A stretch of 64,000 bases of DNA from a virus: positions 1 through 64,000 of the IMG/VR virus record IMGVR_UViG_3300042868_005761; one strand, written 5' to 3'. Positions 15,200-18,900 of the stretch are shown in pieces (the first letter of the stretch is position 1; the number at the start of each line of letters is the position of its first letter). The position numbers and the translations under genes are program-made. Under the pieces are notes generated by a model, which searched no databases, was not told the DNA's origin, and saw nothing but the letters and a program-made list of their open reading frames with translations.

Positions 15200-15234
15200 C
15201 AGAACATAACACTGCACGTAAGGAATAGATAACA

Positions 15235-15528
15235 ATGAAAAAGTCATTTAATGGCCACATCATTGAAACAAACCGTAAACCAAAGCCAACCGGCACTATT
15301 AGGGCATGGGATGGTACTTTGGTTGGAGCAGGAGAAGTTGTGATCTGTGTTGATTTGCGTATCAACAAAGGTTACTATGTACTTCGCCATGAGATTCAAA
15401 TCTTCTTTGACATCAAAGATCCTCCTCCGAAATGGGTTACCCAAAAGGAGAATGAGCACAATGCAAAGATGGCTCGCGGTCTTCTGGAAATGCTAGAAGC
15501 AAACAGAAAGAAGAACGGCGATAACTAG
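15235..15528 (+). CDS. hypothetical protein
   Basis: 97-aa ORF with AAGGA upstream. Confidence 0.7.
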   Translation: MKKSFNGHIIETNRKPKPTGTIRAWDGTLVGAGEVVICVDLRINKGYYVLRHEIQIFFDIKDPPPKWVTQKENEHNAKMARGLLEMLEANRKKNGDN

Positions 15529-15530
15529 AG

Positions 15531-15563
15531 AATAGCCTACCATCACAGGTGGGCTATTTTTTT
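15531..15563 (+). terminator. intrinsic terminator closing the left operon
   Basis: AATAGCCTACC-ATCACA-GGTGGGCTATT followed by a T run. Confidence 0.85.
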
Positions 15564-15684
15564 CTTTCATCCAAAAAAGGTCCAATTACTCCGCTGCCTC
15601 GCTTACGCTCGGCTGTCCGTTCGCATGTTTGTCTTCGCTTGTAGGGCTCGCTTCGCTCGGCGCAACCGCTTCGCTCGCTTCGCT

Positions 15685-15711
15685 GGGGCTATCGCCCCTT
15701 TTTTCTGCGGA
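15685..15711 (+). promoter_or_regulatory. hairpin element copy 1 (putative phage promoter)
   Basis: GGGGCTATCGCCCC + 10 nt + GGA. Confidence 0.6.
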
Positions 15712-15758
15712 GTCCAGATGTCCTGGCTCCCGTTTGGTCCAGCGTGATGGACTGCGAG

Positions 15759-15786
15759 AGGGGCTATCGCCCCTTGTTTCTGCGGA
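15759..15786 (+). promoter_or_regulatory. hairpin element copy 2
   Basis: AGGGGCTATCGCCCC + 10 nt + GGA; upstream of SSB. Confidence 0.6.
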
Positions 15787-15824
15787 GAGGAGGATGGTCC
15801 TTCTCTCCACACTGGAGCGCACCC

Positions 15825-16250
15825 ATGAGCATGGGCTTTGAGCGTACTCAGGTCGTCGGCAACCTTGGAGCCGACCCTATTCTCCTGACGGGCCAGTCGG
15901 GAACTTCCATCTGCGCCATGCGCGTCGCTGTCAACCGCAAGGTCAAGGGCGTCGCTGTCGTGAAGTGGCGGGACGTCGTGTGCTTCGGTGCACTCGCGGA
16001 GAACATGGCGAAGATCCTCAAGAAGGGCGACACCGTGTTCGTGGACGGAACCCCCGAAGACGAAGAGTTCCTCCGCAAGGATGGCTCCAAGGGCTTCGCC
16101 GTCAAGATCCTCGCCAACGTCGTCGTCAAGACTGGCTCCCCCGCTGGCGCTTCGGCTCCGACTGCGGCTTCGGCTGCGGGCGGTGACGCGGCTGCGGAGG
16201 CCCTTGCGGCGCTTCGCGAGACTGCCAGCGTCCCGACCGACCCCTTCTAG
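15825..16250 (+). CDS. ssb: single-stranded DNA-binding protein
   Basis: VVGNLGADP, W..VVCFG.LAE..AK.LKKGD.VFVDG; C-terminal DPF; very GC-rich. Confidence 0.9.
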   Translation: MSMGFERTQVVGNLGADPILLTGQSGTSICAMRVAVNRKVKGVAVVKWRDVVCFGALAENMAKILKKGDTVFVDGTPEDEEFLRKDGSKGFAVKILANVVVKTGSPAGASAPTAASAAGGDAAAEALAALRETASVPTDPF

Positions 16251-16361
16251 GGCGCAGGTCGAGCCTCAACCCCCCTTCGCCCTAGCGGGCGTCGGGGGGT
16301 TTCGGAGCCCTGTCTTCGCTGAGTAAAAATAGGCCCGCAACTCCGCTTAGTATAGATACAG

Positions 16362-16389
16362 AGGGGCTATCGCCCCTTTTTTCGGTGGA
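16362..16389 (+). promoter_or_regulatory. hairpin element copy 3
   Basis: AGGGGCTATCGCCCC + 10 nt + GGA. Confidence 0.6.
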
Positions 16390-16406
16390 TAGGCAATTCT
16401 GCTTAT

Positions 16407-16628
16407 ATGGAGGAAGTCATGTTGATGAGTGCTGCTGCGATCTTGACTGATAGTTTTGAGAAGGTTCAGAAGGAGACTCTGAGCCTGGATGACGTGAACC
16501 ATGAGTCTTATGACCCGTGGGATGCCATCAATGAGCGTCTCGATGAGAAGAAGTACGAGGAAGATGCCAACACTGGCTCTGACTCGCTGATTGAAGCCGT
16601 GCATACGGCCCGCCGTTTCTTTATCTAG
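16407..16628 (+). CDS. small acidic hypothetical protein
   Basis: 73-aa ORF; alternative GGAGG-led start at 16419. Confidence 0.7.
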   Translation: MEEVMLMSAAAILTDSFEKVQKETLSLDDVNHESYDPWDAINERLDEKKYEEDANTGSDSLIEAVHTARRFFI

Positions 16629-17491
16629 TCTTCGGACTGATAGAGATAGGAGTCTACCCTCCGAAGTTAAGAGCACCTGTCCGCGGGACTCGGGGTAGAA
16701 CTCATGTGCTGGATCTCCTAAGGAGGCACATGTTTAAACAGAAGAGGGGACGACCTAGGGTATGTCGTAAAACTACCCGACTTTTTACGGCGATAGTGGG
16801 TTACACTAGTTCTAGTAGTAGGGTGTAAACTCTATTAGAACTACCATGAAGCGCCATCCTTCAAGAGTTTACTAGTACAATCATAAGTGCGCCTGCCGCT
16901 TATGGGAACCTAGTGAGAGTCAGTTAGTTGCTGTGGGTGTATGGGAGCATAGCACGGTGACGAAAGTCTGCCGTGTTTATGCCGCTACCAGCACATATGG
17001 GTCATTGACTCATAACCACGAAACCTGGCTATATAAAAAGGCTGGTTACTGGTTGGAGCCCTGCCACTAGTAATAAGATAGACATGGGCTTCAAATCCTC
17101 TAGAAAAACCATAGGTGAGCCTGCCACTTATTGGGAACCTAGAGGTAGTCAGGGTTGCAAACCTGGCTTTAGCGATGGGCTGGCTGTTAGTGGACCCCTG
17201 CCACTAATGGAGAAAGACGAACATGGGGTGGTGACTAGTTGGAGCCCTGCCGCTAGTAACGAGATAAACATGGGCACTATCGGAACTCCTTTACTCACCC
17301 TCGGGAAGGATAGGTAGATAAGACAAAGAGGTACTCGTCTGTCCTAGCAGATGAGCAGTGCTGCAGCGCTGTAATATATAGGAGTCCCCAAGCCGTTTCT
17401 CGGGTTTGGATTATGGCTTTAGACAGAGGTTTGATCAGTCTGGTGACGCAACGGACCACACGCGGTTATGGGTTCGATTCCCATATGATTG
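16629..17491 (+). ncRNA. candidate large structured ncRNA (or cluster of ncRNAs) with five repeated pseudoknot modules and a 3' T-arm
   Basis: ~860 nt without a credible ORF; many stems with G-U pairs on the + strand, UUCG and GAAA loops; ATGGG-TTCGATT-CCCAT at 17468-17484. Confidence 0.65.
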
Positions 17492-17517
17492 AATTACTTT
17501 TACTAAGAGGTTACAAG

Positions 17518-17682
17518 ATGAGAAATCAGTTTCCTGGAGTATGTTACCGATGCGGCAAGACTGTTCCTGCTAAGGAGGGACACTTTGAACGTCACATCGG
17601 TACTTGGCGAACACAACATGTCGACTGTGCAATCAAGTACAGAGGCACATCTTACAGTCACACTGCTACAAACAAGGAGTAG
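17518..17682 (+). CDS. small Zn-finger-like phage protein
   Basis: CxxC..HxxC; AGAGG upstream. Confidence 0.7.
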   Translation: MRNQFPGVCYRCGKTVPAKEGHFERHIGTWRTQHVDCAIKYRGTSYSHTATNKE

Positions 17683-17685
17683 CAC

Positions 17686-18267
17686 ATGAACAACAAGAAC
17701 ACGATCTTCAATTTCAGCGCTGTCCGCCTTTTCGCAACCGAGATCGCCAAGAGGATGAACCATCTCGGATACGATACGACCTACTCGGTTGCCATGACCG
17801 AGTTCAGTGGCCCGACCATCAGCTCCGCCATCAGGGGCAACACGGAAAAGGAAGGGTACTACATCGTGGAGCACGGGATGTTCCACGACGCACGCAAAGG
17901 CTTCGAGGTCAATTTCACGATTAGCCTCCCCAGTCCCGAAGGCGGATACATCACCGAATGGGTCAGCGCCAAAATCAACAGGATCCGTCTCCGTGACTAC
18001 CTGGAGACCGAGGAGACCCTGTACTCCGTCCCGACTCTGGAAGTGTACTCGGAGCGGTTTGGAGAGACCGCTGCCTTCTACAGTGCAATCCCCACCTTGA
18101 CGAAGCACTTTGACTTCACGGTCAAGAACGTCAAGGCTGACATGGACAGTCTCATCAACCTGTTCTGGGGACAGAAGAGCCTCCTCAGCAAGATTGAAGA
18201 CCCCGACTGTGCCATCGAGGAGTTTAATAACCTCCTGGTTGAGTTGGGAAGTTCTGTCTCGTCCTAG
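17686..18267 (+). CDS. hypothetical protein
   Basis: 193 aa; AAGGAG SD; GC-rich codon usage. Confidence 0.8.
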   Translation: MNNKNTIFNFSAVRLFATEIAKRMNHLGYDTTYSVAMTEFSGPTISSAIRGNTEKEGYYIVEHGMFHDARKGFEVNFTISLPSPEGGYITEWVSAKINRIRLRDYLETEETLYSVPTLEVYSERFGETAAFYSAIPTLTKHFDFTVKNVKADMDSLINLFWGQKSLLSKIEDPDCAIEEFNNLLVELGSSVSS

Positions 18268-18276
18268 TAGTCAACT

Positions 18277-18406
18277 GATTACTAGTAGGTCCACAGCCTG
18301 AAACCTGCCCGTTGGTAGGCTAACCTATCAGATGTCATGTCTGGTAGCCACAAAGGCTGAATCACTTCCTTATGGTAACAGATGGGTTCGAATCCTGTCA
18401 GGAAGA
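18277..18406 (+). ncRNA. candidate small structured RNA with three-way junction and tRNA-like T-arm
   Basis: CAGCCT/AGGCTG closes CCTGCC/GGTAGG and CTATCAGA/TCTGGTAG; then CTTCCT..GATGGG-TTCGAAT-CCTGTC-AGGAAG. Confidence 0.5.
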
Positions 18407-18433
18407 CTTTACCCCCTTATATAGAGGTTTGTC

Positions 18434-18889
18434 ATGGAAAAGCAGTTTGCAATGGAAACGGTTCAGGACATGGATAAGATCCTTGCTATCCTCAAGCCCA
18501 AACTTGAAGATAGTAAGATGAAGTATCACTTCCTCAAAGAAGAGGACACCACCGAGTGGCATTACAAAGACCAACAGGAATACTGGAGAGTCCGTAAGTC
18601 AGTCGTAGACACTTACTTCAACTGCTTGCAGATGAATGAGTGGGCCGGAGATTATCGCCGTTTTCTGGAAACAGGTCTTGATGGATGGACCTCTAGGGAT
18701 CTGTCGAAGGTCGGCAAAGAGATCCTCAACAGATACCTCAACAAAGTAGTTGAGGAAACCTGGTGGGATGCCAATGAGGACCGCCTTATGGGAGAATTCG
18801 AAAGTTCCCGCCAAGGACTCGGCGATGATGACCGCAACTTTGAGTGGTACATCAATCAGCAATACGAGACTTACCTCCACGAACTGTAA
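18434..18889 (+). CDS. hypothetical protein
   Basis: 151 aa; GAGGT SD. Confidence 0.8.
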   Translation: MEKQFAMETVQDMDKILAILKPKLEDSKMKYHFLKEEDTTEWHYKDQQEYWRVRKSVVDTYFNCLQMNEWAGDYRRFLETGLDGWTSRDLSKVGKEILNRYLNKVVEETWWDANEDRLMGEFESSRQGLGDDDRNFEWYINQQYETYLHEL

Positions 18890-18900
18890 CGAGAAAACCA

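What the first reader, a model, noticed from the sequence alone, without database searches (positions are those of the whole stretch)
16868..17275. Array of five homologous, covarying H-type pseudoknot modules
Seen: each module is a stem, then a loop ending in CCTGC(C), then the closing strand, an A-rich linker and (A)TGGG pairing back to the loop. Compact copies are 17046-17092 (TTACTGGT/ACTAGTAA; GGAGCCC/GGGCTTC), 17184-17229 (CTGTTAGTG/CACTAATGG; ACCCC/GGGGT) and 17231-17275 (ACTAGT/GCTAGT; GCCC/GGGC). Two extended copies, at about 16868-16940 and 17097-17181, share ATA(A/G)GTG.GCCTGCC(G/A)CTTAT..GGAACCTAG and an outer stem (TTTACTAG/CTAGTGAG, CCTCTAG/CTAGAGG). Stems change with compensation while CCTGCC and TGGG stay fixed, which is the signature of a selected RNA fold. 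I cannot match it to a riboswitch or ribozyme I know; it is only topologically similar to SAM-SAH. Inference: a multivalent aptamer or decoy (protein or metabolite sponge, possibly an antitoxin mimic, since type III ToxI antitoxins are tandem pseudoknots), or an array processed into monomers.
Basis: partly seen in the sequence, partly recalled or inferred. Interest (0 to 1): 0.85.

Follow-up and report, generated by a model that had tools for sequence, protein, structure and literature searches.

The report
Expandable pseudoknot RNA array in phage
A 176-kb uncultured lake phage carries an uncatalogued non-coding RNA built from small knot-like folds whose copy number differs between close relatives and which ends in a tRNA look-alike; the fold is real and is present in RNA libraries, but its function is untested.

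Summary
The repeats are real and are a selected RNA fold on the + strand.

**What is there**
- There are two module classes, not five equivalent copies.
- Three compact H-type pseudoknots lie at 17046-17090, 17184-17229 and 17232-17275.
- Two larger modules lie at 16868-17043 and 17097-17181. Each has an outer stem, an inner hairpin, a third hairpin and a probable long-range loop pairing.

**Support**
- In 17 compact units from six related phages, both the hairpin stem and the pseudoknot helix covary.
- The larger modules' two stems also covary. Their pseudoknot is consistent with the sequences but invariant, so it is unproven.
- No Rfam family matches.
- The compact module occurs only at this locus, with 0 to 4 copies among relatives.
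- Contigs from four metatranscriptome runs (three studies) cover the array.
- The array is the middle of a longer RNA: a covarying 5' domain, the array, then a tRNA-like element that no tRNA finder calls.
- No ToxN gene is present, and no neighbouring gene tracks the array.

**Reading**
My best guess is a copy-number-tunable, multivalent binding platform (decoy) for an unknown protein. It would be released by tRNA-processing enzymes. I give this 0.4.

This scan has noted tandem pseudoknot modules next to phage tRNAs before, on other genomes and with other motifs.

The parts
16784..16862 (+). 5' domain B. It has an outer helix, a long hairpin, and a 7-bp pairing between the hairpin loop and the strand just 5' of it.
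   Evidence: It sits directly upstream of the array in all six array-bearing phages. 96.1% of cells pair and 9 pairs change on both sides (alignment A6).
16868..17043 (+). Large module 1. P1 is 16868-16875 with 16910-16917. P2 is 16883-16889 with 16897-16903. The 7-nt loop is 16890-16896. P3 carries a 100-nt insertion at 16925-17023. The proposed loop partner is 17039-17043.
   Evidence: P1 and P2 covary. RNA contigs from relatives skip the insertion (joint 16923 to 17024).
17046..17090 (+). Compact pseudoknot 1. The stem is 17046-17056 with 17064-17073. The loop is 17057-17063, the A-rich linker 17074-17085, and the pseudoknot 3' strand 17086-17090.
   Evidence: Model R1 scores 64.2 bits.
17097..17181 (+). 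Large module 2. P1 is 17097-17103 with 17139-17145. P2 is 17111-17117 with 17125-17131. The loop is 17118-17124, the P3 hairpin 17150-17165, and the proposed loop partner 17177-17181.
   Evidence: 95.8% of cells pair, against 19-60% when partners are slid.
17184..17229 (+). Compact pseudoknot 2. The stem is 17184-17193 with 17201-17210. The loop is 17194-17200, the linker 17211-17224, and the pseudoknot 3' strand 17225-17229.
   Evidence: Model R1 scores 59.4 bits in the genome search and 46.5 bits with filters off. The pseudoknot pair is C-G here where units 1 and 3 have G-C.
17232..17275 (+). Compact pseudoknot 3. The stem is 17232-17242 with 17250-17259. The loop is 17243-17249, the linker 17260-17271, and the pseudoknot 3' strand 17272-17275.
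   Evidence: Model R1 scores 64.4 bits.
17276..17429 (+). Variable connector modules. They include a conserved hairpin at 17356-17371 and a second hairpin at about 17388-17410. Both have compensated stems in relatives, and their order differs in L006.
   Evidence: Read directly. No statistics were run.
17430..17493 (+). tRNA-like element. The 8-bp acceptor stem is 17430-17437 with 17486-17493. A 3-bp D-like hairpin is at 17438-17447. A variable arm follows, then a T arm with a canonical T loop at 17467-17485.
   Evidence: It is conserved in all relatives, including the array-less L006, where four acceptor pairs change on both sides. ARAGORN and RF00005 do not call it.

Best explanation
The array is the middle part of a phage non-coding RNA. 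The order is 5' domain B, then the pseudoknot array, then connector hairpins, then a tRNA-like element. Each module folds on its own into a hairpin whose 7-nt loop pairs with a G-run downstream. Stems drift freely with compensation. The loop core, the end of the A-rich linker and the G-run stay fixed, so every module shows the same surface. Modules are gained and lost by duplication and deletion.

My reading is that the RNA is a multivalent binding platform, a decoy or sponge, for one protein of the host or the phage. The dose is set by copy number. The tRNA-like element would serve as the handle by which RNase P or RNase Z cut the RNA away from the downstream mRNA.

Shown: the fold, its strand, its restriction to one locus, the copy-number variation and its presence in RNA libraries. 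Inferred: protein binding, decoy action and processing at the tRNA-like element.
For: - **Fold.** Both helices of the compact unit covary. P1 and P2 of the large module covary.
- **Strand.** 31 G-U cells make the + strand pair better than the - strand, 88.6% against 78.4%.
- **Same surface on variable stems.** The invariant or near-invariant columns are the loop core, the linker end and the G-run.
- **Copy number.** There are 3 compact units in this phage and 1, 4, 0, 2 and 4 in relatives' records. Neighbouring proteins of those relatives are 75-99% identical where homologues were found. Identical arrays were recovered from independent samples, so misassembly is unlikely.
- **One locus.** The module is found at one place only, in complete 174-176-kb genomes.
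- **Not coding.** Variants in RNA contigs carry 1-nt indels at 17092, 17131 and 17147. The only ORF over the array is 77 aa here and 56 aa in L004.
- **RNA libraries.** Contigs of 87-335 nt from four metatranscriptome runs (three studies) lie on 16883-17343 and 17430-17465.
- **Own transcription unit in two relatives.** A terminator and then a + strand-only motif sit just before domain B. That motif occurs 12 and 10 times in the two loci against about 0.01 expected.
- **Precedent.** A phage RNA repeat that expands to titrate a host protein is known: PhiTE pseudo-ToxI (PMC3475682).
Against: - No binding partner is known.
- No gene tracks the array. p193 and p54 are present without it in L006, and no homologue of either was found in the L008 and L029 loci, which carry it.
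- The host is unknown.
- Units within one array have diverged (60-86% identity). That is unlike known RNA decoys, which copy a target sequence closely.
- The family is confined to one small clade of uncultured phages, so the number of independent compensatory events is small.
- RNA-library contigs cannot exclude carried-over DNA, and they show neither RNA ends nor abundance.
Confidence: 0.4

Rival explanations
1. It is a stability or processing leader. The pseudoknots are mechanical blocks that shield the RNA, or the tRNA-like element and the downstream mRNA, from exonucleases or RNase E. Alternatively they guide tRNA-type processing. No specific ligand is involved.
For: - The array always lies 5' of the tRNA-like element and 3' of domain B.
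- The tRNA-like element ends about 25 nt before the next start codon.
- Other T-arm minihelices sit just upstream of genes in this window.
- Earlier notes of this scan report other pseudoknot modules in front of phage tRNAs. These are unchecked leads.
Against: - A purely mechanical block does not need an invariant loop and linker sequence.
- L006 keeps the tRNA-like element and the downstream genes with no array at all.
Confidence: 0.2
2. It is an antitoxin mimic. The modules would imitate the RNA antitoxin of a host type III toxin-antitoxin or abortive-infection system and neutralise its endoribonuclease, as PhiTE pseudo-ToxI does.
For: - The units are tandem pseudoknot-forming repeats of 46-49 nt with A-rich single-stranded linkers.
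- Copy number differs among close relatives, as in PhiTE escape mutants (PMC3475682).
Against: - Units are not near-identical and their stems differ. A single toxin would have to recognise only the loop and linker.
- No Rfam antitoxin family matches.
- The phage has no ToxN gene.
- The host and its systems are unknown, so there is no template to compare with.
Confidence: 0.1
3. It is part of a large ornate RNA of the GOLLD/ROOL kind. The whole region of about 860 nt would fold or self-assemble into a defined particle, with the modules as building blocks.
For: - It is a long ORF-poor region, rich in pseudoknots, in a phage and ending in a tRNA-like element. GOLLD and ROOL are also phage RNAs that lie near tRNAs and contain pseudoknots (PMC12286853).
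- Domain B has a loop-to-flank pairing with no linker. That is awkward within one molecule and could be intermolecular.
Against: - There is no match to the GOLLD or ROOL models.
- The architecture is not fixed. Copy number runs from 0 to 4, there is a 100-nt insertion, and module order is shuffled.
Confidence: 0.1
4. It is a tandem metabolite-binding riboswitch of the pseudoknot type, as in preQ1, SAM-II or SAM-SAH.
For: - The topology is an H-type pseudoknot with an A-rich third loop and a conserved core.
- Tandem aptamers are known. This rests on general knowledge.
Against: - No riboswitch model matches even at E up to 10.
- No expression platform is present. The last module is followed by further RNA modules and the tRNA-like element, not by an RBS or terminator.
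- The downstream gene differs among relatives.
Confidence: 0.05
5. It is a DNA-level element, such as an origin, iterons or a packaging site, rather than an RNA.
For: - The repeats are rich in CTAG palindromes and lie in a non-coding gap near an SSB gene.
Against: - G-U pairing is strand-asymmetric.
- The pseudoknot helix covaries.
- The array is present in RNA libraries.
Confidence: 0.03

Closest known systems
ToxI and phage PhiTE pseudo-ToxI (type III antitoxin RNA arrays; PMC3475682)
   Same: Both are tandem short RNA units that form pseudoknots. Both have A-rich single-stranded parts. Both are phage-encoded arrays whose copy number changes between close relatives.
   Different: - Units here are 46-49 nt, diverged, and carry compensated stems.
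- A second, larger module class is interleaved with them.
- There is no adjacent toxin gene and no known host template.
- The array is embedded in a longer RNA that ends in a tRNA-like element.
GOLLD (RF01998) and ROOL (RF03087) large phage RNAs (PMC12286853)
   Same: Both are phage-encoded, several hundred nucleotides long, rich in pseudoknots, next to tRNA-type elements and of unknown function.
   Different: - There is no model match.
- The architecture is modular and variable instead of one fixed fold.
- Distribution is very narrow.
T4 stable RNAs species 1 and 2 of the tRNA gene cluster (recalled from memory, not tested)
   Same: Both are small stable phage RNAs of unknown function that are co-transcribed with tRNA-type structures. 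They are presumably released by tRNA-processing enzymes.
   Different: The T4 RNAs have no repeated pseudoknot modules and no known sequence relation to this array.
Upstream pseudoknot domain plus tRNA-like structure of tobamovirus 3' UTRs; pseudoknots PK2-PK4 of tmRNA (recalled from memory)
   Same: Both have a row of H-type pseudoknots directly 5' of a tRNA-like acceptor/T-arm element.
   Different: - Those belong to RNA-virus genomes or to a cellular ribosome-rescue RNA.
- Here there is no tag reading frame, and no tmRNA model or ARAGORN call.
- Both acceptor strands lie within about 65 nt.

Membership tests
Type III toxin-antitoxin antitoxin RNA (ToxI/CptI/TenpI) | Toxin gene (ToxN/AbiQ fold, PF13958) directly downstream of the repeats, behind a terminator | tested here: not met
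   PF13958 has no match in the 176-kb genome. The region has no terminator-like site. Downstream proteins have no Pfam or PADLOC match and do not track the array.
Type III toxin-antitoxin antitoxin RNA (ToxI/CptI/TenpI) | Tandem, nearly identical repeat units | tested here: not met
   The compact units are in tandem (spacing 47-49 nt). They are only 60-86% identical and their stems are compensated.
Type III toxin-antitoxin antitoxin RNA (ToxI/CptI/TenpI) | Cleavage into unit-length RNAs by the toxin | not testable with these tools
   Only assembled contigs of RNA runs were available. They cannot show RNA ends.
Phage pseudo-antitoxin decoy (PhiTE type) | Sequence likeness to an antitoxin of the host | not testable with these tools
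   The host is unknown. The strict unit-pattern scan of viral contigs gave only chance hits, almost all with no hairpin. Bacterial genomes were not scanned for the module; the single genome scan used the tRNA-like element's pattern.
Phage pseudo-antitoxin decoy (PhiTE type) | Repeat number differs between close relatives | tested here: met
   There are 3 copies here and 1, 4, 0, 2 and 4 in relatives' records.
GOLLD / ROOL | Match to the Rfam covariance model | tested here: not met
   There is no match at gathering score in the window or in six related loci. There is none at E up to 10 in 16500-17600.
GOLLD / ROOL | One conserved multi-helix architecture across members | tested here: not met
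   Module number, insertions and module order vary.
Pseudoknot riboswitches (preQ1, SAM-II/V, SAM-SAH, fluoride, guanidine-III) | Match to a family model, and an expression platform over an RBS or terminator | tested here: not met
   No model matches at E up to 10. The modules are followed by further RNA modules and a tRNA-like element. The downstream gene varies among relatives.
tmRNA | Called by ARAGORN or the Rfam tmRNA models; tRNA-like domain made from the two ends of the RNA, with a tag reading frame | tested here: not met
   There is no call. Both acceptor strands lie within 64 nt at the 3' end.
tRNA (for the 3' element, 17430-17493) | Cloverleaf with an anticodon arm, called by ARAGORN or RF00005 | tested here: not met
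   It is not called in the window or in any relative. The acceptor stem and T arm are present and covary. The middle arm varies from about 20 to about 150 nt.

The most novel reading that the evidence does not exclude
The array is a new class of RNA-based counter-defence. It would be a copy-number-tunable row of pseudoknot decoys that titrates a host defence or RNA-processing nuclease, for example an abortive-infection endoribonuclease or a tRNA-targeting enzyme. The host's own tRNA-processing enzymes would cut it out of its precursor at the tRNA-like handle.
Probability: 0.2. Interest if true: 0.85.

Novelty: new variant of a known kind. Interest (0 to 1): 0.55.

Why it matters
Few phage non-coding RNAs have a known role, and only a handful act against host defences. 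This one offers three things together: a fold with covariation support, natural variants with 0 to 4 copies of one module, and a tRNA-like end. That makes it a good case for asking what repeated pseudoknots next to phage tRNA-type elements do.

This scan has noted similar arrangements on other phage genomes, with other motifs. If a binding partner is found, the result would add a new kind of RNA decoy and a compact, modular protein-binding RNA scaffold.

Tried and rejected
- **Phage GenBank records.** blastn of the whole gap found no match.
- **Strict two-unit pattern in viral contigs.** It gave 14 loci, all chance matches without the unit's hairpin; most lie in ordinary sequence and two next to tRNA genes.
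- **Protein-anchored searches** with p193, the 73-aa acidic protein and p151 found only the same small clade.
- **tRNA-like pattern in bacterial genomes** hit only true tRNA-Asp genes in tRNA arrays of two Kofleriaceae MAGs. This gives no clue to the host.
- **RNA target of the loop.** The complement of the loop core occurs nowhere else in the window.
- **Sigma-70 promoter and terminator scan** of the gap found nothing useful.
- **Relatives' + strand motif.** It is absent from this window.
- **Flanking genes in RNA runs.** The contigs did not cover them.
- **Coding reading of the 77-aa ORF at 17084-17317.** Rejected because of indel variants and a different length in L004.
- **Phage typing by PHROGs** gave no host clue.

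Full report
**Setting.** The window is the first 64 kb of a 176-kb IMG/VR virus record, found in lake-water metagenomes. The finding lies in an 890-nt gap without convincing ORFs, at 16629-17517, between + strand genes. Upstream are an SSB gene and a 73-aa acidic protein. Downstream are a 54-aa zinc-ribbon-like protein and a 193-aa protein without family matches.

**The observation.** The spaced loop/tail motif is found 4 times against 0.25 expected, and 3 of those are in the array. Read against relatives, the array consists of two module classes.

The compact class has three copies, at 17046-17090, 17184-17229 and 17232-17275. Each has these parts:
- a stem of 8-10 bp closed by two G-C pairs;
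- a 7-nt loop with a CCCUG core;
- an A-rich linker of 12-14 nt ending in ACAU;
- a G-run that pairs with the first 4-5 loop bases.

The large class has two copies, at 16868-17043 and 17097-17181. Each has these parts:
- an outer stem P1;
- an inner hairpin P2 with a related 7-nt loop;
- a third hairpin P3;
- an A-rich stretch and a short segment complementary to the P2 loop.

Each large module is followed by a compact one, so the basic repeat is a super-unit of about 135 nt. The window holds two super-units plus one extra compact unit.

**Relatives.** Protein-anchored and pattern searches found one small clade of uncultured lake phages.
- L003, identical to L002, has one large and one compact module.
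- L004, identical to L005, L025 and L026, has two large and four compact modules.
- L007 has one large and two compact modules, plus a plain UUCG-capped hairpin where another unit would be.
- L008, identical to L010 over the locus, has one large and four compact modules.
- L029 has two large and three compact modules.
- L006, identical to L027 and L028 over the locus, has none.

Identical arrays recovered from independent samples argue against misassembly. A strict two-unit pattern found only chance hits elsewhere in IMG/VR.

- 88.6% of cells pair, against 82.5% in column shuffles (0 of 500 reach it) and 27-57% when partners are slid by 1-3 columns.
- Seven pairs change on both sides.
- The pseudoknot pair next to the CCC run is G-C in 7 units, C-G in 6 and U-G in 1.
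- The + strand pairs better than the - strand, 88.6% against 78.4%, because of 31 G-U cells. The functional molecule is therefore a + strand RNA.

For the large modules (A4), P1 and P2 have compensatory changes. 95.8% of cells pair, against 19-60% when slid. The proposed loop-to-downstream pairing is consistent but nearly invariant, so it is not proven.

Many units are orthologues or recent paralogues. The number of independent events is therefore smaller than the cell counts suggest.

**Two classes, one locus.** A covariance model of the compact unit (R1) finds the three copies at 46-64 bits. It gives the large modules 0.6 bits. In the complete genomes it finds the module only at this locus: 3 copies here, and 1, 4, 0, 2 and 4 in the relatives' records.

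**Known families.** Rfam 15 gives nothing but true tRNAs at gathering score in the window and in six related loci. At E up to 10 in 16500-17600 it gives only two irrelevant weak hits. That excludes, at this sensitivity, the pseudoknot riboswitches, small self-cleaving ribozymes, antitoxin RNAs, tmRNA, GOLLD and ROOL. ARAGORN calls no tRNA or tmRNA in the gap.

**Context within the RNA.** A 5' domain B (16784-16862) sits directly upstream of the array in every array-bearing phage. It has three covarying helices: 96.1% of cells pair and nine pairs change on both sides.

Every relative, including the array-less one, has a tRNA-like element downstream, at 17430-17493 in the window. Its features are:
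- an 8-bp acceptor stem, in which four pairs change on both sides between the window and L006;
- a 3-bp D-like hairpin;
- a middle arm that varies from about 20 to about 150 nt;
- a 6-bp T stem with a canonical T loop.

It ends about 25 nt before the next start codon. Its D-loop and T-arm sequences are those of ordinary tRNAs, for example a tRNA-Asp in MAG tRNA arrays.

In L003 and L007 the RNA locus follows a terminator and a motif that occurs 12 and 10 times in the locus, always on the + strand, against about 0.01 expected. This looks like its own promoter. The window lacks that motif.

**Transcription.** The stretch is held by many lake metagenomes and, in small shares, by metatranscriptomes. 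I laid four RNA runs (three studies) on 15200-18900.
- Contigs of 87-335 nt lie on 16883-17343 and 17430-17465.
- Several are variants that match relatives. They skip the window's 100-nt insertion, or continue as in L007/L008 into the tRNA-like element.
- Variants carry 1-nt indels at 17092, 17131 and 17147, so the only ORF over the array is not conserved.

Contigs cannot show RNA ends, strand or abundance, and carried-over DNA cannot be excluded.

**What it is not.**
- It is not a self-contained type III toxin-antitoxin system. There is no ToxN-family gene in the genome and no terminator. The downstream p193 and p54 are present in L006 without an array, and no homologue of either was found in the L008 and L029 loci, which have one.
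- It is not a riboswitch in the usual sense. There is no expression platform, and the downstream gene varies.
- It is not a fixed ornate fold. Copy number, an insertion inside P3 and the order of connector hairpins all vary.

**Most likely mechanism.** Each module folds independently and shows the same conserved loop, linker and G-run surface on a freely drifting stem. The number of such surfaces changes quickly between phages whose neighbouring proteins are 75-99% identical. This is the pattern expected of a multivalent binding platform whose dose matters. The one experimentally understood precedent is the expansion of pseudo-ToxI repeats in phage PhiTE (PMC3475682).

I therefore favour a decoy or sponge for a single protein, released from its precursor at the tRNA-like element by RNase P or RNase Z, at confidence 0.4. 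The fold, the strand, the locus restriction, the copy-number variation and the presence in RNA libraries are shown. Binding, the target and the processing are inferred.

The rivals, in order:
- a ligand-free stability or processing leader (0.2);
- a mimic of a host type III antitoxin (0.1);
- part of a self-assembling ornate RNA like GOLLD/ROOL (0.1; PMC12286853);
- a tandem riboswitch (0.05);
- a DNA-level element (0.03).

**Novelty.** This is an undescribed RNA family with good comparative support, but it has a narrow distribution and no tested function. This scan has already noted tandem pseudoknot modules ahead of phage tRNAs on other genomes, with other motifs (unchecked notes). The arrangement may therefore be a recurring theme rather than a one-off.

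Noticed in passing
window 17430-17493: A tRNA-like element with a covarying 8-bp acceptor stem, a 3-bp D-like hairpin, a canonical T arm and a middle arm of very variable length. The middle arm is about 20 nt here and about 150 nt, with a second T-arm-like hairpin, in L003. No tRNA finder calls it. It ends about 25 nt before the next start codon.
   Followed up: partly
window 16784-16862: In 5' domain B, the loop of a 13-bp hairpin is complementary over 7 bp to the strand immediately 5' of the hairpin, with no linker. This is sterically awkward within one molecule. It may be an alternative fold or an intermolecular contact. One compensatory pair supports it.
   Followed up: partly
window 18366-18405, about 19572 and about 38874: There are further T-arm-type minihelices, an acceptor-like stem plus a T arm only, just upstream of genes or of tRNA-Tyr. 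The T-loop motif occurs 12 times in the window against 1.8 expected. This may be tRNA-style punctuation of transcripts.
   Followed up: partly
L003 2899-11390; L007 5832-9839: The 11-nt motif CTCCTKCGTCG occurs 12 and 10 times, always on the + strand. In the stretch inspected (L003 4000-6100, L007 8400-8930) it sits after terminators and before small ORFs. It looks like a phage-specific promoter. It is absent from the window, whose early region must use another signal.
   Followed up: partly
L003 4376-5552: A 1.2-kb block of three small ORF cassettes, at least two followed by a terminator and each preceded by a copy of the motif, is inserted between the homologues of window 16647-16788 and 16784 onward. 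Element A of the window is therefore a separate unit, and in L003 it is followed by its own terminator.
   Followed up: no
window 16925-17023: A 100-nt structured insertion sits in the loop of hairpin P3 of large module 1. It is absent from all relatives and from the RNA contigs of runs X20 and X21.
   Followed up: no
window 17356-17371 and about 17388-17410; L006 5690-5750: Two connector hairpins have compensated stems. One has a palindromic loop containing a PstI site. They occur in opposite order in the window and in L006, so RNA modules are shuffled at this locus.
   Followed up: no
L040 3810-7545; L041 5808-7862: Two Kofleriaceae MAG contigs carry dense tRNA arrays, with 18 and 11 tRNA genes in 2-4 kb. 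They were hit only because a tRNA-Asp shares the D-loop and T-arm letters of the phage element.
   Followed up: no
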